DNA of 64,000 nucleotides. It comes from Naegleria gruberi (Eukaryota). This document shows, in pieces, positions 10,853 through 54,361 of this stretch. The DNA is taken from assembly GCA_000004985.1 (NCBI GenBank), contig GG738887.1, one strand, 5' to 3'. The notes under the pieces were generated by a model that was not told the origin of the DNA, did not search any database, and saw only the letters and a program-made list of their open reading frames with translations. The position numbers were made by a program, and so were the translations under genes. Position 1 is the first letter of the stretch. Each line of letters begins with the position of its first letter.

Positions 10853-12590
10853 TTACAAGTCAGTTCTTGGTTTCATGAGTAATCTCATATTTTTAGGTCT
10901 AACAGTGACACCAGGTAATGGTTGAACTCTATCTTTCACATCATTTTCATCATTCAATAATTCGAAAGTGTAGAACTGCATCATTCTGCACAGGATGGAG
11001 AATTTCTCGAAAAGTGCAAATCTATAACCAATGCACTTTCTTGATCCCATGGAGAAGGAGGTCAATGTGAAATCGTGCAATTTCTTGGTTTGAGATTCGC
11101 TGTCCATTGGGAATCTTTCAGGATTAAATTCTAAAGGTTTCTCATAATTCTTTTCATAACGATTGGCTGAGTAAATGTTCAAGTTGAGGAAAGTATCTTT
11201 TGGAACGTGATACTTGCCAATGGTTGTGTCTTTCTTGGCAGTTCTAAATACACCAGTGACTGGTGGATGCAATCTTAATGATTCCAACATGACAGCTGTC
11301 ACATATGGCAAATTAGCAAAGTCATCATAATATGGTTTTCTAGCATTTGGTCCTTTTCCATAGTAGTTATCAATTTCTTGTCTAAGCTTGTTTTGAATAC
11401 TTTCATTTTTAGATAATTCATATAATGTCCATTGTAAACTTGTTGCTTTGAAAATGTTACAAAAAATTGATGAATGTTAAAAACCTACACGTTGTTTCAT
11501 GTCCGGCCAGCGAAAACACATATATGTCACTCTTGAGCTCCAAATCTGTCAATCTATCCTTTCCTTCAATTGTCATGTTGGCCTCAACCATCAAGCTCAA
11601 TAAATCTCTTTTTTCTTCATTATTTGATTGAGCATCAGAAACTTCGTCATTATTCAACTCCAGCTCTTTCTTTCTATTATTAATAATTTCGTCTAGTTTC
11701 GTACTGACATTCTCAACAGCTTTATCAACTCCAAAGCACTTGTAAGCTAGTGGAAGAGCAAAATGAAGGAATGGAACTAAATCTTTGAATAAATGATTTA
11801 ACAGAATTCCATTTGTGAACATATTTTCCAATGACCTTCTGAAAATCATTCCTTCTGGATTAGAATCATCGAAAATTGAGAAATCCAATCCGAAACCAGC
11901 CTTTCCAAGAACATCTTGAAATAGTTCAATAAAAAAATTATTAGAAACAAATAAAATTGATCACATACCCAAAGTGATATCACTAAAATCAGCATTAGCA
12001 TCCAATAAAATTCCCTTTTCTCCCTTCTTCAATGCACTTTCAATTTGTTTCTCCCATTTAAATGTACGAATCAAATCGACACTATTTACAGCCACACTTG
12101 TCATGTGTTCCAAGTTTTTCGTACCAAAGGCATTAGAGGCTACTTTGTGGTGTTTTTTCCAATCATCTCCACTATCCAAATTACTCAAAATATTAATGCC
12201 GAAAGTGTTGAATAATTCGTACAAATGAGGAGGCTTGTGGAAGATATGATTCTTGACAACGAGAACTTCCTTCAACATGTCTTTATCACAAATAACAAGG
12301 GCATTGCTCTTACTCATTGTAATTCTGGTAGTTCTTGTTTCTGGATCACCTTTCTCTCTCATTACTTGATCTGTTTCTTCAAAGCTTCCCCAGAAAACAT
12401 ATGGAGCGACCCATGGAATTTTGATTAAAGTTGCAAAGGCTTGCCACGTTCCTGGGACATTTGGCATTTTCTTGTAGTTTGAAATCAAACGCACAGCAAG
12501 ATAGAGTACCCATAATAGGAAACTCAAAATGAGCACAACAACAATTTGTTGGCCAGCAGATAATGAATCAATCAACTCGGTTAAAATCAT
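10853..12590 (-). CDS. Cytochrome P450 monooxygenase (~546 aa). Exons 12590..11969, 11914..11489 and 11445..10853; introns 11968..11915 (54 nt, GTATGT..CAAG) and 11488..11446 (43 nt, GTAGGT..CAAAG).
   Basis: N-terminal membrane anchor. I-helix AGHETTS. ExxR within ESLRLHPP. PERF. Heme-binding loop FSMGSRKCIGYRFA. Spliced junctions give ...ITLG-D-VLGKAGFGLDFS... and ...AGHETT-S-TSLQWTLYELSKN. Confidence 0.85.
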
Positions 12591-13187
12591 TCCGATTCAA
12601 GCAAAAAACAGTAAATATATTTCAAAAGGTGTGTATTGTTCTTTTTTTTGTTTTGTTTTCAGTGTTTCAAAGTTTTTTCCTTTTAAAGGTCGAAGTTTAT
12701 CGGCGGGATGTAATTTAGGAACGAAGTAATGGGACGGAGATAATGAACGGAAGGAAAGCACCCTATTTCTAATGACCTGCTTTTCAACCTCAATGATTAT
12801 TCGATAGAGGATGTATTTTCCGCTTCAAATTGATTTCCCCTAATGGAGTTTTATTTATTGGTCAACTGAGTTTGAATTATCCTCCAACTTTTACAATTTT
12901 ATCTTGAAAATAGCCCTGTTGTTTATTGCAATTAATTTAATAACCATGAAATGAAAATTAGTCATGGAATAATTTTCAACCAAAATTGGAGAAGCAAAAA
13001 ACCTCGCCAATAGAAAGTAAATTTAACCTTCCACTGAACCATTGATAAAATTTCTGCCATTATATCAAGAAGAGAAAATATCTCTAATTAGGCGTTGTTG
13101 AAACTCTTTAAAATGTTTCCAATAACCTAGAATTCTAAATTGAAACCTATTGTCGTAAATTGAAATCTGTAACATGTTTTGAATCCA

Positions 13188-14195
13188 TTAATCACCATTA
13201 AAAACACTACTCTTTCTAAAACTCTCCAATTGAACCATTTGTCCAAAAAGTCCATTCTTGTTAATTTCCTGATCGATATCAGAAGGTGGTGGTGATGAAT
13301 ATTTGGTTTTCTGTCTCTGCTCTTGGAATCTCTCAATATTCGTTATTGGAATGAATAATGGACCTTCATCAAGGTGATTCTTCGATGAGGATGAATTACT
13401 TGTTGAAATCATTCCATAAACTCCATCATTTTCGAATTGTTCCTGAAGTGTTGAGAGTTCATGCAGGTAGAAACGACCCTTAACAGAACGAGGAATGTCG
13501 TCATGATGATCGATGGATTGGAAAATTGGTGGAGGAATCAAACCAATTGTTGTTGATTGTTTCCTGGTGTTCATGAGTGAATTATTGGACATGCCATGGA
13601 CATGACTGGAAGGAGTATGATTGAAAAAGGATAAAAACACACTCAAAAACTTGATTAGTGAAATGGTAGCCAATGAAGAAACCGAAATCCAACCCAAACT
13701 TTTCATCAATTTTCCTGATTTTACAATTTTCTGAATAAACTTCCACAATTTCATCCAAATTGATAATTTTCCATTCTCATCAACAACCACTTCATCAGAA
13801 TTCAATCCACTTTCATCTCCACTTCTTTCCTTATTTTCTTCCAAAACTTGTTCAGAAATTCCTCCTTCTGATAAATCTAATTGTGCTGATGATAATTCCG
13901 CATCTCCATTCTCACTATTATCAATAATGGTAAATGATTTACGAAAATTTGAATTTCCACCTTCCTGTTGCTGTCTTCTACCTTTTTTCTGTTTTACTTC
14001 CGATGATAATGATAATGACGAATTTAGTGTTTTCATATTCTTGTTCTTCTTATCATCTTGATCCATTCGGAACAATAAACGATGAAGTGCCTTCTTTTGT
14101 AATTCGAGGGCTACCCAAGCAACTTCATCCATGTCATCTTGTTGTTGTTGTTGATTGTTATCATGTTGATGATGACGTTGGTTGTTGTTTTGCAT
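13188..14195 (-). CDS. Hypothetical Q/N-rich protein (335 aa).
   Basis: ATG at 14195. N-terminal QNNNQRHHQHDNNQQQQQ tract. One predicted TM-like segment. No family match recognised. Confidence 0.4.
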   Translation of the reverse strand: MQNNNQRHHQHDNNQQQQQDDMDEVAWVALELQKKALHRLLFRMDQDDKKNKNMKTLNSSLSLSSEVKQKKGRRQQQEGGNSNFRKSFTIIDNSENGDAELSSAQLDLSEGGISEQVLEENKERSGDESGLNSDEVVVDENGKLSIWMKLWKFIQKIVKSGKLMKSLGWISVSSLATISLIKFLSVFLSFFNHTPSSHVHGMSNNSLMNTRKQSTTIGLIPPPIFQSIDHHDDIPRSVKGRFYLHELSTLQEQFENDGVYGMISTSNSSSSKNHLDEGPLFIPITNIERFQEQRQKTKYSSPPPSDIDQEINKNGLFGQMVQLESFRKSSVFNGD

Positions 14196-14523
14196 TTTTA
14201 TTCAAATTGGTTTTTTTGAGGATCTTGTGTGTGAAATTTGGTAATGGAGGGAGAATTGTTGATGACTTTCGCACTGTGGAGAATTGAAAGGACGATTACA
14301 ATAAGAACGAAACTTGGTTTGTTTTACAATGAGAAAATTGAGGCCATTCCTTTGGTCAACTCAAATATAGTTACATAACTTTCTTAACATGCACCAATAC
14401 ATTTAGAGTCAACCCTTTTCTATCTGAATCTTTAACATCAATTGAGAAGTAATTTTCTGAAGGTTTTGTAATTTTCATAGCTTGCACTTTTTCATATTTA
14501 CCACTAACTAATGCAATAGATGA

Positions 14524-15779
14524 TCAATAGAAGAGTTTGATTTTAAGTTTTGTTGGTTCATCATCCTCATCATCAGATTCTTCATCATCCTCATCCTCAT
14601 CATAATCCATAACATCATCATCTTCCTCATTGTCATCCTCAGTTTCATCTACATGATCTTCTGGCTCATCATTGACAATAATCGAGTCCTCAAAGAATGT
14701 CCTTAATTCTAAATTGAACTTGCGATGGCATGAATCAAACTGCAACCTTATTTCAACACGGCCATCAAATAATTCAGTTGTCTTGAAAAGTTATCATCAC
14801 AACAAGTTAAAATTTCAATACTTACTTCAATTTCTTCATCCTCATCTTCTCCAGCTTTTACTTTCCTATACTCGGCAGATGAATAGCCATCACAGAAAAA
14901 ACAATGATCGTATCTCCTCGATCTGTTTTGTATTCCTGTAATTTTAGAAAAATCCTCATCTAGGTAAATGGCAGATTCTACTCCTGACAATTTGATTAAG
15001 GATGATATTGATTGTTTAAATGGTGAAAGCATTTCCATAGTCATTGGGGTAACATTCTTTGTTTTTTCGTGAATCCTTTGACATATTAATCTGGCCCTAG
15101 TATGGAATGGAACAATTTCTTGCTGGCAAATGTAATTAATCTCCTCGTCTGAATTTGTATTTTTTGCATGGGGTTGAGAACTTTCAAACACAAACTCTGC
15201 AATTTGCTTCTCTGTCATTATTCTAAGCCATTCCTTGATGAGCCATTGTATTTTAGTACTGGAAGAATTGACCATCTCTTGCATCAATGCTGGTAAATCA
15301 AGGTACTTTGCCAACTTGACAATCTTTTTCAATTTTCCAAGATCATCAGCTAGCCCATTAATATTCAAATTATCTCCATATAAATATTCCAAAACTACAT
15401 CAAAATCAGATCTAACCAAATATGTTCCTTCAGTCAACTCTATTTGCTGACTAATATCTGCCACCTTCGTCATATCAACAACATATTTTCCATCCACAAT
15501 GGCCACATCACTCTATTGTTCAATCATTCTCCGTATCAATCCACTCCTCTTCACAATAAAATCATGAACCTTATACTCAAACCAAGGAGTCTTGATCATC
15601 ACATTCGGAGGAACAATTAATGGCTGATTGTCGCTCCTTTGATAAACAACCGATTGAGCATCATCATCTCTGTAACTTCCATTAAGACTACGGAACATGT
15701 TTAACAAATAATTGGACATGTCCATTTCTTCGAGTTGATTTCGTGGCCAAGCAGAAAGCCAATTAAACCTTTTCGACAT
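14524..15779 (-). CDS. Elongin-C/Skp1-fold (BTB-like) protein with an acidic D/E-rich C-terminal tail. Exons 15779..14826 and 14781..14524; intron 14825..14782 (44 nt, GTAAGT..TCAAG). An in-frame TAG at 15515..15513 interrupts the fold (see findings).
   Basis: KVHDFIVKRSGLIRRMIEQ aligns with Elongin C [21 protein letters not shown]. Downstream IELTEGTYLVRSDFDVVLEYLYG and KIVKLAKYLDLPALMQ align with the rest of the fold. All three track ORFs (15513..15779, 14748..15506, 14524..14745) are joined in one frame after removing the 44-nt intron. Confidence 0.55.
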
Positions 15780-16118
15780 TTTTTTTCTCTTTTAATTTCC
15801 ACTAATTTGTTTCCTTTGTAAAATCTTTGCAAAAAATTGTTGGTATTCAAAGATATTGTTTTATCCAACAATACACCAATAAATTCGGAAATTATGAGCT
15901 TTATTCTACTACACGCACGTAATAGATTATTTTCAACACTGAACAACCACAAAACCAATTTCTACTAATCTATTACCCTTGAAATACTAGCAAACCGAAT
16001 AATGGTTGACAAGATGAAAAACTTGAAAATTAATTTTCAAGAAAATCTTGCCTAATTGTAATAGAATCAATTCTATTACAATTACCTCGTCCAATACTAC
16101 AACCATTATTCAAACACC

Positions 16119-16320
16119 CACAAAGTCTTTGACACTCCAAAAAATCCCCTCACCAACCCTAGAACCCAGTTCTATGTTGGCCTATTGAGCGCAGATCTTC
16201 ATCAAGCATCAAATTTGATCACCTCTATAACACCTAAAAATCCCCTCACCAACCCTAGAACCCAGTTCTATGTTGGCCTATTGAGCGCAGATTTTTAAGC
16301 ACCACAAAGTCCTTGATAAC
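16119..16320. repeat. Tandem duplication (~2.2 copies of a ~98-bp unit).
   Basis: The sequence ...aaaaatcccctcaccaaccctagaacccagttctatgttggcctattgagcgcagat occurs at 16139-16196 and 16236-16292. The flanking cacaaagtc(t/c)ttga(c/t)a also recurs. Confidence 0.7.
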
Positions 16321-16397
16321 ACACCACTAATAAAATAACAATAAAGACGTATCAAAAGAATTAATATACTCACCGAGTGTTGGGGTGGGTGGTGGGG

Positions 16398-16499
16398 AAT
16401 CAAAGTATTAAGCTTGCTCAATGTTGAAAATTTTTTAGACAAATTTTCCTATTTCTTGGTGTATTGTTTACAATAAACTTTAGTGAGTTGAATACTCAC
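16398..16499. repeat. Left copy of an identical 101-bp direct repeat (right copy at 17351..17451).
   Basis: Both copies read aatcaaagtattaagcttgctcaatgttgaaaattttttagacaaattttcctatttcttggtgtattgtttacaataaactttagtgagttgaatactca. Confidence 0.75.
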
Positions 16500-17350
16500 T
16501 CCAATTTATCCAACAATACACCAATAAATTCGGAAATTATGAGCCCATACTAGCAACCTAATTCTTTTGATACGTGATTGGCTAAAACTTAACCACAAAC
16601 TCAACTATCTAGATAAACCATACAAGCTAATTCTTCCATATAAATGGAGAATGTGCCTTAAAGGAGCCTGAATCAATGCATTAGCTTAAATCAAAACATC
16701 ACCTCTCTGGAGAACATCAAGCCAATGATTACTAATCGTGATGAATAAATAGGTTTCGCTGTGAATGGATCATTAAGGGTATTCAATTTTGGAGGTCAAC
16801 AGGAATATTAATACCATGTGGAAGTGGCGGTGTGTGTTCAAGATTATATGCTTGGCTGATAATATTCTCAAATTTAAAACATCTAGCCCATTATGTCCAA
16901 TATATTCGGAAGGATTGATTGAAGCCCTGAATCCTTTGTTAGCAATCAAGTTACTGTTATTAGGTGAGATGGAGACTTGCTGGTTCATCAGTCTTAAGGT
17001 TCATGAATTTCATAAAAGACTAGAGAACCTAAGGTGGAAGTGATGAGTCGTCTCCACTTATTCCGAAGTAAGTACTCTTGGGAAATAATCTTATCTACTT
17101 GCGTATGGTTGAACTCTATCCTTTAGCGTTCACTTTTGCAACCATCAAGAAAAAGGATACTTGTTGTTGTGTATCACCTTGACTATAAGAACAACCGTTT
17201 TGAAAGTGTTAATGTGTTCTGTTGACTTAACAATTATTATAAACAGTGTCCGAATGTTGAAGATGAAGGAACGGATGTCTGGTCGGAAGAGAATTGGTGC
17301 TAGGTTTATCGTGCTGTTTCTTGCTCTGGTTGAAAAAATTACTCTCCTTG

Positions 17351-17451
17351 AATCAAAGTATTAAGCTTGCTCAATGTTGAAAATTTTTTAGACAAATTTT
17401 CCTATTTCTTGGTGTATTGTTTACAATAAACTTTAGTGAGTTGAATACTCA
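17351..17451. repeat. Right copy of the 101-bp direct repeat (spacing 953 bp).
   Basis: Exact match to 16398..16499. Confidence 0.75.
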
Positions 17452-17655
17452 ACTTGGAAAGCTCAAGCAGTGAAATGAAACTCTTGAAAAAAAACCAAAA
17501 AAATACCCGTTCGGCAATTGGCTTATCTTGGTGAGAGATCATTGTCATCATTGGCTTTCTACATCATTAATTTATTTGTGCAGCTTGTTATTGTATTATA
17601 TAAATTGTACATATTCCGAGTGTATATATTTTAATTAGTAATTATAAAGATCATC

Positions 17656-36550: not shown

Positions 36551-39067
36551 ATGTCAACACAACATCACTTTCCACATCAACACATTGTTGCAATGACATC
36601 TTCTCGGCAATACTCTCAAAGACACAAACCACTTCTTATCTTCTCCCTCATCTGTCTTATCCTATACGCAACAAGCCTTCAACCCCATCATCTCATCTCG
36701 GCACAACTTGCACGCTGTTCACCACTGATAAAAAATGGCGCCAACGCTGAGGATGCATTCTTCAGCTATTCTTATGCGAGTAGTGATTTTAATTTGACTT
36801 CATCTTCTGCGTCATCAGTTTCGAGTGCTGGAGAGTTTACTCACTATGTGGATACGCAAACGTATGTGAGTGGAGTTTCATCCAAGTGGAGACAATTTGA
36901 TGGAAATATGTTTTATGTTCTTGGTGTGGTGAATGTAGATGGAACAGTGGTAAATTCGGGAGGTGAAACTCTTCAAGAGGTGTTGAGTAGGAAGAAATCT
37001 GATGAGAGTGTTTCATTGTTGGATGTTGTTCCTTTTATTAGAAAATCAACATTTGCTATTAGCAGGAATACTGGTGACTATTCCATTAGTATGTACAAGA
37101 TGTATTTTGGACAAGGAAATGAAGCTAGGGATAATTTGACATCTGTGACTACTAGTAGCTCATCATTTGCTGGATTGAATGGTTATGACGCAAGTGGTAA
37201 TTTAATGACCATGATGAATGTGAAAAGTTTCAATGCAACTTCTTCAGTTTCTTTGGACCTTGAGTTTGGATACTATTCATCTAAATTGGAAACTGTGTTT
37301 ATTTTCACTTTGGGAGCCAGAGCTTACAATTCTTCTGGTTTCTCCTTGTACAATAGTAATTACAATATTAGATTGGATGGCTCAGCTATTGAGAGTATTC
37401 GAAAGTCATCAAGCGAGCAGCTAGTTCTCTCTTTCTATGTGAGTGATGCCAGCTATACAGGTTTATTTTCTTCTCTTGAGTATACTACAAAGGCACAGAT
37501 CTACCCATTTCCCACCACAGTTAGTGGCTTTAGTTATCAATTTGTGAAATTTAACATTTCTGATACTTCCAAAGTCACATGTTCAAACTATCCTAGAAGT
37601 GTTCTGTATTCTTCCTTCTTGAACACTACACTTGCTATTGATTGGATCCTATTCGGATTGGTAGTCCTATTGACTCCTCTCTTTTTAATTTTCAGAAACG
37701 AACAACCACTCAAGAGTCGTTTAATTGTTCCCTACCTAGGTATTGTCTTTTTACTGATTTTATTTATTGGAGTTCAATATTCGATAGATAGTACTAGGCC
37801 ATCAGAAATTAAGAGCATCATCAGTGTTTCATTCTTTATAATGTCTTTGTTTGCATTTATTTTCCAAGCTTTTCGTTATTATTATTTAAGATATCTCTAT
37901 TCTAAGGTATGTGGTAAATCAATCTTTTTGGGAAAAGCTAACCCAAAATGAACTATATAGACTGACATTAGTGTGAAACAATCCAGAATTAAGAAATTCC
38001 TTTCCTCCAAGACTGTTTTTGTAATAGCACTAGTTGTTTCAATGGTTTTAGGTATCATTTATCTTGTTGTAGTCTTATCAGTTGCCTTGACCTCAACTAG
38101 TGTAAGCACGAATGGAGTAAAGGAAGATGTAGAAGTGGAATATTATACAAGAATAGCAATCCCTGCCTTTACAGTTCTTATTTTAATTTCTTGCCTCCTT
38201 ATTGATATTTTGCTTAATATCAAATCATTCTTTGGTAATATTGGAAGATTCCTCTTCTTTGAGGATCCTCTATTTTTCAGATCTGAACTTTTGCTTGTCA
38301 TTCCAACATGTATCTTTTACGTGATAGAGTTTGTACTCAATTCTGGTAAGTAATTATTTTCCAATATACATTAACAACTTGTAGAAACTCGTCCATATAT
38401 TGATGGATCGCTCACAACTTTCCTCATTCCAAAGAACATTCATGAAATTAGAACAATGATTGGATTTTTTGGAATTTTCCGTTTCCTCAATCTATTCTGC
38501 TTTGTTCTCTTTTTTGGTGAGGCTCTCGTGCTAGCTGTTACCATTACACGAGTCATTAGGAGAAATTACAAGCGAGGCAAAAAGGGATTATCTCTTTTAC
38601 AACCACACAATAGTCCTCTAGGAATGTTCAGATCTAAATCAAGTTCTGAAGATGATATAATTGAGAACTTTGTATCAAAGGATGATGGACACAAGCTTTT
38701 AGAAGAATTTTCCAGAAATGAGTTTTCAATTGAGAATATTTTACTCTATGATATTTTACACCAGTTCCCTAATGAGAAGAATGATGAAAACAGAAGGAAA
38801 ATTCTCTTGGATATTTATCTGAAATTCATCATGTCAAACTCTGAGTTTGAAATTAATCTTTCATCTTCAACTCGTAAGGAATATTCCCAACTTATTGAAG
38901 ATTTACAGGATAACAAACCACTGCAACCAGATGAACTGATTCAAACCCTCAAGATTGAGGTTATTCAAAACATGGCAGATACATTCAGTCGTCTGGAAAT
39001 GTCTCCAGAATACAGTTCACTTCTTTCTAAATGGGAAACTGAAAAGGCAACAGCCCTTAAAATATAG
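36551..39067 (+). CDS. Seven-transmembrane receptor fused to a C-terminal RGS domain, with a ~330-aa N-terminal ectodomain (~807 aa). Exons 36551..37906, 37961..38345 and 38385..39067; introns 37907..37960 (54 nt, GTATGT..TATAG) and 38346..38384 (39 nt, GTAAGT..TGTAG).
   Basis: Signal-like N-terminus (likely start MTSS at 36590). TM1-3 in exon 1, TM4-6 in exon 2, TM7 in exon 3. RGS-domain motifs EEFSRNEFSIENILLYDILHQF...ILLDIYLKFIMSNSEFEINL. Splicing joins three track ORFs in frame. Confidence 0.65.
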
Positions 39068-52167: not shown

Positions 52168-54361
52168 TTAACTGTATCCATACATCATATTGACAAAGTT
52201 ATCAATATAGTATTCAGCTCCATTCAAAACTCTGCATGGTTCACATTCTAAATTGTTAGGAGTATTACACCAATAAACTCCAACCATTGGATAGACATTA
52301 CCTCCTCCCCAATTCAATATTGGAAGAACAGCAGAACAAGTAAGGAAGAAACTGACTACTGTCTTGACACTACCATTGGTCATTGGTGGTTTCTTACATA
52401 ATTTAACTAATCTCCACTTGTCCAAATATAATTCAAGAATTGAAGCAACCAAGGCAATCAATGTAATCATTGGGAAGCTAGCCATACCACTGTAAATAAG
52501 GTATTGTCTATAAATGACTTCCAAATATTCTTCAGAGACGTCAAAGTCAGGTCTAACACCTTCGTCACTGCCTTTGTTTCTTCTCTTTGAAATAAAGTAT
52601 GAAACATATGGAACTACCAATTCAATAGCATTGAAAACTAAAAAGTCCAACAACATTTGGATTAAATACTGATTACCCAATGTACGAATAACACATGGAA
52701 CGTTGAATAAACCCTTAGTAAAACCCATAAAGAAGACGTTGAAAAGTTTGAAAAATAAGTACTTGAAAGTATTGTGAGAACGATATCCTGACCATGTGTG
52801 ATGCTTTTCAAAGTTGGTCAAACTGATACAAATCTTCTTCCACAAAAAATTGACCAAACCAATCACAACTGAAATGGCAATAGAAATCAAAGTCAAATAA
52901 AGGGTATTTTGAGAAAATACTGCATCAGCAGCTTCATAGATGGTTGTGAAATTTTGAAGAATTGTAAAACCAACTGTAATGGCACAGGAAATTAACATGA
53001 AGAGAATGAAGAGGGAATAACTGACAAAATATCTTCCCAATCTGTGCCATCTGGTTGTAGATAAATTTTCCTTAATAATATCTGCATCACGATCGAATGC
53101 TTCGGCAAGATCATGTTCTTCCATATCGTATACGTCACGTTTTTGGAAACTTCTTCTGACAATGAACCAATACAATGGTCCAAAACCTAGTGTGGCAACA
53201 ATACATAATCTATAATAGAGTTCATATTAACAACTATTACATTAGAAAATACATACATGTTTGTCGCAACCCACAACCAATAAAGTTGTGGAGAATAACT
53301 GCTACCATATAAGATATCAATAAGACCACCATAGTTAGAGAATTCTCCCTTGAAAAAGTTTGAAAAAGTCTCAATATAAATAGAGTCAATAACAAGATGA
53401 GGAATAAAGTTGATTAATTGGAAAAATAGCAGTAGGGCATTCAAAATGATAATTAAACGACCAAAGTCAAAGTACAGTCTTACACCCAAACCAAAGTGGT
53501 CTTCAATTTCCTTCCATTTACAACAAAATCTCAAACGAATTGAACTAAATTCGTTTTGAACTCTATTAAGGTTAGATCACTCTTATTTGAAATTATTACA
53601 TACTCTTTGATTTCATCCAATCCTAAACCTGTCTTTAACAAGTAAGGTTGACCTTTTGCAGTTCTCATAACTGTATACTTTTTGTGATGTTGTACATGTT
53701 CTTTGGCTTGATTTTTTCCAAGTTGGTCAGTACTTTCAACACGATTCATTTCTGATATTTCCTGTAACCTTTTCTTTTTACCTTGTGCAAAGACATTCAA
53801 GCCAAAAAAGCCAGATTCCCATAAACTTTCCTGATTATCATGCTTGGCATTGCAAATGAATTGAGTACCATAAATATCAGTCATATCCTCATCATTCTTC
53901 TTTGTAAAGGTTGTTTTTGAGGTGAGTGCAATATCATTCACACTCATTTGACTAGATTGACGGTTAGCTCCTTCCGAAGGGGCTTTAGGACCTGATTCGA
54001 TATATCCTGGAGGATATTCATGGGTAGGGTGTTGTTGTCGAGTTACATCTTCTGTTATTGGTGGTGGTACTGTTGTATTATCATTATTATTAGTATTTTG
54101 TTGTAATTCATACTCTTGTGAATGGTGATGATGAGAAGGTTGTACATTATAATTTGGAAGATAACTTGGAACTTGGGCATTGTTTGTGAGTGGAGGATCA
54201 TTCGAAGGATAATAAACATTGGTATTATATGATGTTGTATTGGGAACATAGATATTTTGTTGTTGTGTCCCTGGCATGTAGCTGATATTGTACATTACAT
54301 TTGGATCTTGTGGTTGATAACCACCTGGTTGTTGTGGTGGATACTGATTGTATGGATCCAT
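52168..54361 (-). CDS. TMC (transmembrane channel-like) family membrane protein (~701 aa). Exons 54361..53604, 53562..53257 and 53209..52168; introns 53603..53563 (41 nt) and 53256..53210 (47 nt), both with GTATGT donors.
   Basis: TMC signature-like segment PCVIRTLGNQYLIQMLLDFLVFNAIELV (compare CWETxVGQExYKLxxxD). About 8-10 TM helices. Q/P/Y-rich cytosolic N-terminus. Splicing unites three adjacent track ORFs in one frame. Confidence 0.6.

What the first reader, a model, noticed from the sequence alone, without database searches (positions are those of the whole stretch)
15504..15521. In-frame TAG interrupts an otherwise intact Elongin-C/Skp1-fold gene
Track ORFs 15513..15779 and 14748..15506 are in the same frame and are separated only by TAG (15515..15513): ...SGLIRRMIEQ-TAG-SDVAIVDG.... 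The N-terminal half (KVHDFIVKRSGLIRRMIEQ) and the C-terminal half (IELTEGTYLVRSDFDVVLEYLYG...KLAKYLDLPALMQ) both align to one Elongin-C/BTB fold, so neither is a complete protein alone. No canonical intron of plausible size removes the TAG. Possible explanations: recent pseudogenisation, a strain-specific nonsense allele, a sequencing error, or programmed stop-codon readthrough. At least two other genes in this window also appear to end at TAG, so TAG is otherwise a stop codon here.
Basis: seen in the sequence. Interest (0 to 1): 0.55.

Follow-up and report, generated by a model that had tools for sequence, protein, structure and literature searches.

The report
Broken copy of a Naegleria BTB gene
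A Naegleria gruberi gene for a BTB-domain protein carries a real premature TAG stop, and a second TGA stop further on, that a near-identical copy in the same genome assembly lacks, so it is most likely an ordinary, recently disabled allele or duplicate whose defect the public annotation hides behind an invented 42-base intron.

Summary
On the minus strand a TAG (15515..15513) sits in frame between an 88-codon and a 254-codon open stretch. The window is Naegleria gruberi NEG-M. TAG is codon 89, in a loop inside a confidently modelled BTB/POZ domain (residues ~55-172). The public gene model skips the TAG with a 42-nt GT..AG "intron" (15513-15554). That interval is a plausible size, but it lacks the local GTAAGT/GTATGT donor and is G/purine-rich. 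It also encodes the family's most conserved residues (R78, S79), so it is coding. A second N. gruberi protein (XP_002668386.1, on an 8,042-bp scaffold of the same assembly) is 97% identical and reads Ser at this codon. A 97%-identical metagenome contig shows a second lesion in the window copy: nine extra bases carrying an in-frame TGA (14526..14524), which cuts off 49 codons, 46 of them aligned to that contig. TAG ends bona fide genes nearby. The TAG has no readthrough context, significant downstream RNA structure or Rfam element. dN/dS against the relative is 0.26, so the lesions are recent. Best reading: a young null allele or pseudogenised duplicate of a Naegleria-specific BTB gene. This is ordinary and of low interest. 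A sequencing error at the TAG, and readthrough, are not excluded.

The parts
15513..15515 (-). In-frame TAG, codon 89 of the gene. It lies in the loop after the conserved BTB helix.
   Evidence: sequence and translation. (model: helix 80-87, strand 92-95). P0003 reads Ser here.
15555..15779 (-). Start of the coding sequence: the ATG at 15779..15777 through codon 75 (N-terminal region and the first BTB strands).
   Evidence: It is exon 1 of the public model P0001.
15513..15554 (-). A 42-nt GT..AG interval that the public model (P0001) treats as an intron. It is in fact coding: V76-Q88 plus the TAG.
   Evidence: Removing it reproduces P0001 exactly. The donor is GTGAAG; GC is 0.40, purine 0.74 and T 0.21, against 0.19-0.31, 0.39-0.57 and 0.30-0.54 in 12 confident introns. 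R78 and S79 are nearly invariant in the family. Identity to the uninterrupted paralogue by codon position is 8/11/6 of 14.
15264..15608 (-). BTB/POZ domain (about residues 58-172), which spans the TAG.
   Evidence: AlphaFold2 pLDDT ~80-89. Foldseek top hits are BCL6, SPOP, ZBTB8A and NAC1 BTB domains, TM (target) ~0.6. Pfam BTB is just below threshold: 19.3 against 20.5 bits, residues 124-171.
14826..15512 (-). Coding sequence after the TAG: the rest of the BTB domain, the helical middle region and the start of the C-terminal beta-strand domain.
   Evidence: dN/dS against L001 is 0.26.
14782..14825 (-). Genuine 44-nt spliceosomal intron (GTAAGT...TTCAAG).
   Evidence: The relative L001 keeps it with a 1-nt indel (45 nt), yet the spliced reading frame is conserved.
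14527..14781 (-). Second exon up to the TGA, including a D/E-rich acidic insert.
14524..14526 (-). Second in-frame stop (TGA). The window has nine bases that the close relative lacks, in a complex indel, and the TGA lies within that stretch. The public model uses it as the gene's stop.
   Evidence: Window reads KLFY*SSIALVSG and L001 reads KLFYQALVSG.
14374..14523 (-). Stranded C-terminal coding remnant (SSIALVSGKYEKV...LNVLVHVKKVM). It is still open and conserved.
   Evidence: Continuous ORF in L001/P0007. It aligns end to end with the C-terminus of paralogue P0004.
14371..14373 (-). Ancestral stop codon (TAA) of the gene.
   Evidence: L001 has the same stop at the same position.

Best explanation
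The TAG is a genuine loss-of-function lesion in this copy of a Naegleria-specific BTB-domain gene. The gene is the locus of public model P0001 (a 389-aa N. gruberi predicted protein), between NAEGRDRAFT_70949 and NAEGRDRAFT_70951 on the 508-kb NEG-M scaffold. The lesion is probably a single-base change from a Ser codon (TCG to TAG), which truncates the protein at residue 88 in the middle of the BTB domain.

The same copy carries a second lesion: nine extra bases, in a complex indel, that introduce an in-frame TGA. This removes the last 49 codons of the open frame, 46 of which align to the relative's C-terminus. So the copy is a young pseudogene or null allele.

An intact-looking counterpart exists in the same assembly (XP_002668386.1, on an 8,042-bp scaffold). 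It is either the other haplotype of a heterozygous strain or a very recent duplicate. The orthologous locus in a related environmental strain lacks the TGA.

Shown: the stop, its position inside the domain, that the 42-nt "intron" is coding, the Ser in the second copy, the second stop, and that TAG terminates other genes.

Inferred: that the change was TCG to TAG, that the lesions are real rather than assembly errors, and that no full-length protein is made. The transcript may be degraded by nonsense-mediated decay, because a spliced intron lies ~690 nt downstream of the TAG.
For: - The stop and frame are confirmed.
- The window is N. gruberi NEG-M: four neighbouring proteins match annotated NAEGRDRAFT proteins exactly, on a 508,457-bp scaffold.
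- P0003 is XP_002668386.1, "predicted protein, partial [Naegleria gruberi]", on an 8,042-bp scaffold. It differs at 5 of 169 residues and reads Ser at codon 89. Each difference can be reached by one base change.
- L001 (ENA metagenome contig, 97% nt identity, collinear into the 3' flank) lacks the TGA and the nine extra bases, and runs on to the shared TAA.
- The post-TGA peptide aligns with the extreme C-terminus of the paralogues.
- The segment removed by the model intron holds the nearly invariant R78 and S79. It is part of an uninterrupted ORF in the genomic paralogue L002, with a coding pattern of identity by codon position.
- The BTB fold spans residue 89.
- Under neutrality, ~1.7 nonsense substitutions are expected over half the observed dS of 0.046, so one or two lesions fit a recently released copy.
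- TAG is an ordinary terminator in this window.
- N. gruberi is reported to be heterozygous (PMC9928731, citing Fritz-Laylin 2010).
Against: - No reads were available, so a consensus error at the single base that makes the TAG cannot be excluded.
- dN/dS against L001 is 0.26 and significantly below 1. The only coding indel is a multiple of three, and 309 codons after the TAG stay open. The copy therefore shows no sign of long neutral decay. That is compatible with very recent inactivation, but also with continued use.
- The DNA of the 8,042-bp scaffold could not be retrieved. The neighbouring genes (NAEGRDRAFT_70951, NAEGRDRAFT_70949 and the ARP3-named gene) have no second N. gruberi copy among annotated proteins. 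So "allele" against "duplicate" is unresolved.
- P0003 is partial, so it is unknown whether that copy is intact downstream.
Confidence: 0.7

Rival explanations
1. Sequencing or assembly error. The true sequence at 15514 gives a sense codon (such as TCG, Ser), as in the second copy, and the gene is intact at this point.
For: A single base separates TAG from the Ser codon inferred from P0003. The downstream frame is fully open and under purifying selection, with dN/dS 0.26. The assembly is an older Sanger draft (own knowledge).
Against: The same copy has an independent, complex lesion (nine extra bases with a TGA) that is not a typical base-calling error. The second copy differs at four other residues as well, so it is a distinct sequence and not the same locus mis-read. 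Consensus error rates are low compared with natural nonsense polymorphism in a heterozygous genome (inference).
Confidence: 0.12
2. Programmed stop-codon readthrough. Ribosomes decode the TAG (and perhaps the TGA) at useful frequency, so a full-length BTB protein is still made and is possibly regulated.
For: Both stops preserve the frame. The downstream sequence stays open and conserved. The codon before the TAG is CAA, so two adenines precede the stop, a context that raises leakiness in yeast (own knowledge).
Against: The stop is not conserved: there is Ser in the second copy, and no TGA in L001. The 3' context is TAG-AGT-GAT, not CAR-YYA, and for the TGA the next base is T. There is no significant downstream structure (z = -1.67; 13 of 200 shuffles fold as well) and no Rfam element, including SECIS. 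There is no tRNA in the window. In my reading of the seven same-frame pairs, this is the only gene so interrupted. A literature search on Naegleria, readthrough and stop codons gave five papers; none of the four listed is about stop-codon readthrough in Naegleria, judged from titles and abstract openings only.
Confidence: 0.05
3. The public gene model is right. The interval 15513-15554 is a real 42-nt intron, and the mature protein simply lacks V76-Q88.
For: The boundaries are GT..AG, the length is a multiple of three, and the size falls inside the 39-112-nt range of confident introns in this window.
Against: The donor is GTGAAG. The 13 junctions that offer a consensus donor use GTAAGT or GTATGT, a motif that makes up only 0.58% of GT dinucleotides. 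GC is 0.40, purine 0.74 and T 0.21, all outside the ranges seen in the 12 confident introns. The interval encodes the best conserved motif of the family (VKRSGL.R.M; R78 and S79 nearly invariant), which is continuous ORF in genomic paralogue L002 and present in the second copy P0003. Removing it deletes the first long helix of the BTB core.
Confidence: 0.03
4. Split or truncated products are functional. Either the 88-aa N-terminal peptide is used, or a C-terminal fragment re-initiated at the next ATG (15473) is, making this a new isoform rather than a dead gene.
For: An ATG lies 14 codons after the TAG, and the downstream frame is intact.
Against: Neither piece contains a complete BTB domain. 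The C-terminal domain is also truncated by the TGA. No relative has such an architecture.
Confidence: 0.05

Closest known systems
Heterozygous nonsense alleles and young unitary or duplicate pseudogenes in heterozygous protist and fungal genomes (own knowledge)
   Same: A single premature stop in an otherwise intact ORF, an intact near-identical counterpart in the same genome, few additional lesions, and a low overall dN/dS because the inactivation is recent.
   Different: Whether the counterpart is allelic is not shown here. Read-level confirmation is lacking.
Annotation artefact: short "introns" inserted by gene predictors to bypass in-frame stops
   Same: The public model (P0001) excises exactly 14 codons ending in the TAG, using the nearest in-frame GT..AG. 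The excised piece is conserved coding sequence.
   Different: Nothing of substance. This is a textbook instance.
BTB/POZ-domain proteins of the BCL6, SPOP and BTB-BACK type (Cul3 substrate-adaptor architecture)
   Same: The predicted fold of residues ~55-172 matches BCL6, SPOP, ZBTB8A, NAC1, KBTBD4 and vaccinia A55 BTB domains. It is followed by a helical region and a C-terminal beta-strand domain, like an adaptor with a substrate-binding module.
   Different: The sequence is below Pfam's BTB threshold. The family is so far seen only in Naegleria and in unidentified metagenome contigs. Cul3 binding is untested, and the C-terminal domain is modelled with low confidence.
Programmed stop-codon readthrough (for example TMV UAG-CAA-UUA, MuLV UAG plus pseudoknot)
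   Same: An in-frame UAG followed by a long open, conserved frame, with CAA as the preceding codon.
   Different: There is no leaky 3' context and no significant downstream structure. The stop is not conserved in the closest relatives.

Membership tests
BTB/POZ domain (Pfam PF00651) | Sequence match to the Pfam profile at or above the gathering score | tested here: not met
   19.3 bits against a 20.5 cut-off. Only profile positions 62-104 of 110 match (residues 124-171).
BTB/POZ domain (Pfam PF00651) | BTB core fold (three strands plus a helical bundle) recognisable by structure comparison | tested here: met
   AlphaFold2 pLDDT ~80-89 over residues 55-172. Foldseek top hits are BCL6, SPOP, ZBTB8A and NAC1 BTB domains, TM (target) 0.53-0.64, probability ~1.0. 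The E-values are only ~1e-2 because the query is multi-domain.
BTB/POZ domain (Pfam PF00651) | Homologues independently annotated as BTB proteins | tested here: met
   The N. lovaniensis homologues P0006, P0008 and P0012 are named "BTB domain-containing protein" in UniRef.
BTB/POZ domain (Pfam PF00651) | Cullin-3 binding (phi-x-E motif, 3-box) or dimerisation | not tested
   Skp1 appears only at rank 42 (E 0.52, probability 0.23). No Elongin C appears among the listed matches.
Spliceosomal intron (for 15513-15554) | GT..AG boundaries and a length within the genome's range | tested here: met
   GT..AG and 42 nt. Confident introns in the window are 39-112 nt.
Spliceosomal intron (for 15513-15554) | Donor consensus of this genome (GTAAGT or GTATGT) | tested here: not met
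   The donor is GTGAAG, and no GTAWGT donor is available at this junction. Thirteen other junctions have one, although GTAWGT is only 0.58% of GT sites. Caveat: the junction set is heuristic.
Spliceosomal intron (for 15513-15554) | Intron-like composition (A/T-rich, T-rich) | tested here: not met
   GC 0.40, T 0.21 and purine 0.74. The 12 confident introns have GC 0.19-0.31, T 0.30-0.54 and purine 0.39-0.57.
Spliceosomal intron (for 15513-15554) | No protein-level conservation of the excised segment | tested here: not met
   It encodes VKRSGLIRRMIEQ. R78 and S79 are nearly invariant in 12 sequences. It is continuous ORF in the genomic paralogue, and identity by codon position is 8/11/6 of 14.
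Programmed stop-codon readthrough | The stop codon is conserved in orthologues or close relatives | tested here: not met
   Ser in P0003. The TGA is absent from L001.
Programmed stop-codon readthrough | A known leaky context or a downstream stimulatory RNA structure | tested here: not met
   The contexts are TAG-AGT-GAT and TGA-TCA. Only the 103 nt downstream of the TAG were folded (z -1.67, not significant); the region after the TGA was not folded. The Rfam scan of 13000-17500 covers both stops and found no element above threshold.
Stop-codon reassignment (variant genetic code) | TAG occurs in frame in many conserved genes and is not used as a terminator | tested here: not met
   TAG ends 4 of 34 open stretches of at least 200 codons, three of them with Pfam domains. 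In my reading of the seven same-frame pairs, only this gene has an internal TAG not explained by an intron or gene end.
Pseudogene or null allele | A premature stop inside a conserved domain, with an intact counterpart elsewhere | tested here: met
Pseudogene or null allele | Additional disabling lesions | tested here: met
   Nine extra bases with an in-frame TGA remove the conserved C-terminal strands.
Pseudogene or null allele | Relaxed selective constraint (dN/dS near 1) on this lineage | tested here: inconclusive
   Pairwise dN/dS against L001 is 0.26 (8 synonymous, 9 non-synonymous). The two lineages cannot be separated without an outgroup.
Pseudogene or null allele | The lesion is confirmed in the underlying reads and no full-length product is made | not testable with these tools

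The most novel reading that the evidence does not exclude
The two in-frame stops (TAG at codon 89 and the TGA near the C-terminus) are tolerated because Naegleria reads through them at appreciable frequency. A full-length BTB adaptor would then still be produced from this copy, possibly in a regulated way. That would explain why the frame stays open and constrained after both stops.
Probability: 0.04. Interest if true: 0.6.

Novelty: new member of a known kind. Interest (0 to 1): 0.15.

Why it matters
There are three modest, practical points.

1. The public N. gruberi protein for this locus (P0001, the 389-aa N. gruberi predicted protein on this scaffold) is mis-modelled. It lacks 13 core BTB residues because of an artefactual intron, and it ends at a secondary premature stop.

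2. If the 8-kb scaffold is the other haplotype, this is a concrete example of a heterozygous null allele in NEG-M. That bears on the ploidy, heterozygosity and sexuality of Naegleria.

3. It documents a Naegleria-restricted BTB family with a helical middle region and a beta-strand C-terminal domain.

None of this changes current understanding.

Tried and rejected
- **Fetching DNA for the public proteins and window ORFs.** The look-up of encoding contigs has nothing on record for P0001, P0002, P0003, the 88-aa ORF or the 241-aa ORF. The 8,042-bp scaffold could therefore not be read, and the Ser codon is inferred.
- **JGI metagenome scan with P0003.** 206 pattern matches, but none is a relative.
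- **Word-index protein search with P0003.** It returned only P0003 itself and missed P0001, so that index is incomplete for this family.
- **Test for a collinear haplotig.** The 90%-identity clusters of the neighbouring proteins, and a search with the ARP3-named neighbour, show no second N. gruberi copy on an 8,042-bp contig. Allele against duplicate is left open.
- **Literature.** The N. gruberi genome paper is not held. Searches on Naegleria with readthrough, introns or haplotypes gave nothing specific.
- **Variant genetic code.** Rejected.
- **Selenocysteine at the TGA or pyrrolysine at the TAG.** Rejected. There is no SECIS or other Rfam match, the relatives have ordinary codons there, and Pyl is not eukaryotic (own knowledge).
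- **Alternative GT..AG pairs around the TAG** (donors GTATAA, GTTCAT, GTGGAT). Rejected: all lack the consensus donor and remove conserved BTB residues.
- **Other cases in the window.** The other same-frame ORF pairs are an ordinary GTATGT intron (11961) or, read by eye only, a gene start or end or low-complexity/non-coding frames.

Full report

Yes. On the minus strand the sequence reads ...AGA ATG ATT GAA CAA TAG AGT GAT GTG GCC ATT..., that is ...RRMIEQ*SDVAIVDG.... TAG is at 15515..15513. It lies between an ATG-initiated 88-codon ORF (15779..15513) and a 254-codon open stretch in the same frame.

In DNA of this composition a random codon is a stop with p = 0.073. The chance that the 309 codons following the TAG (after splicing) stay open is ~6e-11.

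I scanned all six frames for pairs of open stretches of at least 70 codons separated by one stop. There are seven such pairs. Among them, this is the only one where neither an intron nor a gene start or end was apparent at the stop; one other is a GTATGT intron and the rest were only read by eye.

**2. What organism and what gene?**

The window is from Naegleria gruberi NEG-M. The best protein hit is "predicted protein [Naegleria gruberi]" (P0001, 389 aa, scaffold of 508,457 bp). Four neighbouring ORFs are exact matches to NAEGRDRAFT_70949, 70951, 51286 and 51287 on the same scaffold.

P0001 is reproduced exactly by joining 15779-15555, 15512-14826 and 14781-14527, followed by the TGA at 14526-14524. 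So the public model removes the TAG with a 42-nt GT..AG "intron" (15513-15554) and has a second, 44-nt intron (14782-14825).

**3. Is the 42-nt interval an intron?**

Its size is not the problem. Twelve confident introns in this window, each joining long open frames, are 39-112 nt long. Everything else argues against an intron.

- **Donor.** It is GTGAAG. GTAAGT/GTATGT makes up only 0.58% of GT dinucleotides in the window, yet it sits at 13 exon-joining junctions. None is available at this junction. That junction set is heuristic.
- **Composition.** GC is 0.40, T 0.21 and purine 0.74. The confident introns have GC 0.19-0.31, T 0.30-0.54 and purine 0.39-0.57.
- **Conservation.** The interval encodes VKRSGLIRRMIEQ. 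The paralogue P0002 has VKRSGLFRTMIDS at the same place, and the pairwise alignment runs straight across the stop.
- **Family alignment.** In a 12-sequence alignment, R78 and S79, both inside the "intron", are among only seven nearly invariant columns.
- **Uninterrupted paralogue.** P0004 is an uninterrupted ORF on a genomic metagenome contig (L002). Its homologous 42 nt match the window at 8, 11 and 6 of 14 first, second and third codon positions, which is a coding pattern.

By contrast, the 44-nt intron is genuine. It has GTAAGT...TTCAAG and is T-rich. In a 97%-identical relative it carries a 1-nt indel while the spliced frame is preserved.

**4. Does one fold span the stop?**

An AlphaFold2 model was built on the family alignment, with both stops entered as X. 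It gives pLDDT ~80-89 for residues 55-172. The order of elements is strand, strand, helix, helix(80-87), loop with residue 89, strand(92-95), strand, then helices.

Foldseek against the PDB puts BCL6, SPOP, ZBTB8A, NAC1, KBTBD4 and vaccinia A55 BTB domains on top, with TM normalised to the target of 0.53-0.64 and probability ~1.0. The E-values are only ~1e-2 because the query has several domains. Skp1 appears only at rank 42, with E 0.52 and probability 0.23.

Pfam BTB is just sub-threshold (19.3 against 20.5 bits) and covers only the second half of the domain. The N. lovaniensis homologues are named BTB domain-containing proteins in UniRef.

So the gene encodes a BTB/POZ protein, and neither ORF alone holds a complete domain. 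The "Elongin-C/Skp1" label is too specific.

The family (14 hits in an exhaustive search of 1.84 billion representatives) is seen only in N. gruberi, N. lovaniensis and unlabelled metagenome contigs.

**5. What do close relatives have at the stop?**

The exhaustive search found P0003, which is XP_002668386.1/EFC35642.1, "predicted protein, partial [Naegleria gruberi]". It lies on an 8,042-bp scaffold of the same assembly.

Over 169 residues it differs from the window translation at five positions: S35G, Y36S, R37K, *89S and K158R. Each can be reached by one base change. TAG to Ser needs only A to C, giving TCG. So a near-identical copy in the same strain has a sense codon here.

I could not retrieve that scaffold's DNA.

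The neighbouring genes have no second N. gruberi copy among annotated proteins. Whether the 8-kb scaffold is the alternative haplotype or a recent duplicate therefore remains open. N. gruberi is reported to be heterozygous (PMC9928731, citing the genome paper).

**6. A second lesion.**

L001 is a 1,060-bp ENA metagenome contig (ERZ929261). It is 97% identical to window 14289-15356 and collinear into the 3' flank.

Where the window reads CTC TTC TAT TGA TCA TCT ATT GCA TTA (LFY*SSIAL), L001 reads CTC TTC TAT CAA GCA CTA (LFYQAL). So the window has nine extra bases, in a complex indel, that include an in-frame TGA (14526-14524). After it, 49 further codons remain open, 46 of them aligned to L001, down to a TAA shared with L001 (14373-14371).

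This tail (...FSIDVKDSDRKGLTLNVLVHVKKVM) aligns end to end with the extreme C-termini of the paralogues. So the TGA, which the public model uses as the stop, is a second premature stop. L001 does not reach the TAG site.

**7. Selection and age.**

Over 309 aligned codons downstream of the TAG, the window and L001 differ by 8 synonymous and 9 non-synonymous changes. This gives dS 0.046, dN 0.012 and dN/dS 0.26, with binomial p = 0.009 against neutrality.

The sequence has 223 single-base routes to a stop. Neutral evolution over half that dS would be expected to give ~1.7 nonsense substitutions.

The data fit a gene that was constrained for most of the divergence and whose window copy was released recently. 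They cannot separate the two lineages.

**8. Alternatives considered.**

- **Variant code.** Rejected. TAG ends 4 of 34 open stretches of at least 200 codons, three of them with Pfam domains (RGS, F-box/LRR, YccF).
- **Programmed readthrough.** Unlikely, though not excluded without expression data.
  - Neither stop is conserved in the closest relatives.
  - The contexts (CAA TAG AGT GAT and TAT TGA TCA) are not known leaky motifs.
  - The 103 nt downstream of the TAG fold no better than shuffles (z -1.67; 13 of 200).
  - Rfam finds nothing above threshold, including SECIS.
  - There is no tRNA gene in the window.
  - A literature search on Naegleria, readthrough and stop codons gave five papers. 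None of the four listed is about stop-codon readthrough in Naegleria, judged from titles and abstract openings only.
- **Sequencing error at the TAG.** This cannot be excluded without reads. The co-occurrence of a second, complex lesion in the same copy, and the four other differences from P0003, make a real lesion more likely.
- **Functional fragments.** Unlikely, because both domains are truncated.

**9. Verdict.**

The public annotation masks it with an artefactual 42-nt intron and by ending the model at a second premature stop.

This is an ordinary kind of event in an uncharacterised, lineage-specific gene family. It is useful as an annotation correction and as a possible example of a heterozygous null allele in NEG-M, but it is not surprising. 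Interest 0.15.

The most novel reading still open is functional readthrough of both stops. I give it about 4%.

Noticed in passing
window 14524-14526 (minus strand), with the extra bases at about 14515-14526: A second in-frame stop (TGA) in the same gene, inside a stretch where the window has nine bases more than a 97%-identical metagenome contig. The public model uses it as the stop, but 49 open codons, 46 of them aligned to that contig, follow down to a shared TAA at 14371-14373.
   Followed up: yes
window 16053-16084: A perfect 15-nt inverted repeat with a 2-nt spacer (TAATTGTAATAGAAT / ATTCTATTACAATTA), about 275-305 nt upstream of the gene's ATG in the intergenic region. Its function is unknown.
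   Followed up: no
window 14374-14900 (minus strand); model residues ~298-454: The C-terminal part of the family is predicted as a beta-strand domain. Among the weaker Foldseek matches are Siah1, Ptr ToxA and Fusarium Avr2, which I would call beta-sandwich folds (own knowledge). If so, the arrangement is a BTB domain, a helical region and a beta-sandwich. The model confidence there is low (pLDDT <50-65). In this gene the domain is interrupted by a ~45-residue D/E-rich acidic insert that the paralogues lack.
   Followed up: partly
L001 (1-1060), L002 (1-2674); ENA assembly ERZ929261 / run ERR1078381, project PRJEB11402: This metagenome contains a Naegleria gruberi-like organism. L001 is 97% identical in nucleotides to the window. 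L002 carries a paralogue of the BTB family. ENA proteins from contigs of 4,484 bp and 1,666 bp (sample not determined) sit in the 90%-identity clusters of two neighbouring window proteins. It could serve as a second strain for comparisons across the whole window.
   Followed up: partly
window 16222-16309 (minus strand): A sub-threshold Rfam match to the mir-87 precursor (28.1 bits against a gathering score of 49, E 0.005 for a 4.5-kb search). Most likely chance.
   Followed up: no
window 11915-11968, 38346-38384, 53563-53603 and others: Introns in this window are very short (39-69 nt for most). They have a strict GTAAGT/GTATGT donor, and most have a YTRAY (often CTAAY/TTAAY) motif within ~10-30 nt of the 3' AG. 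This is useful for re-checking other gene models in the window.
   Followed up: partly
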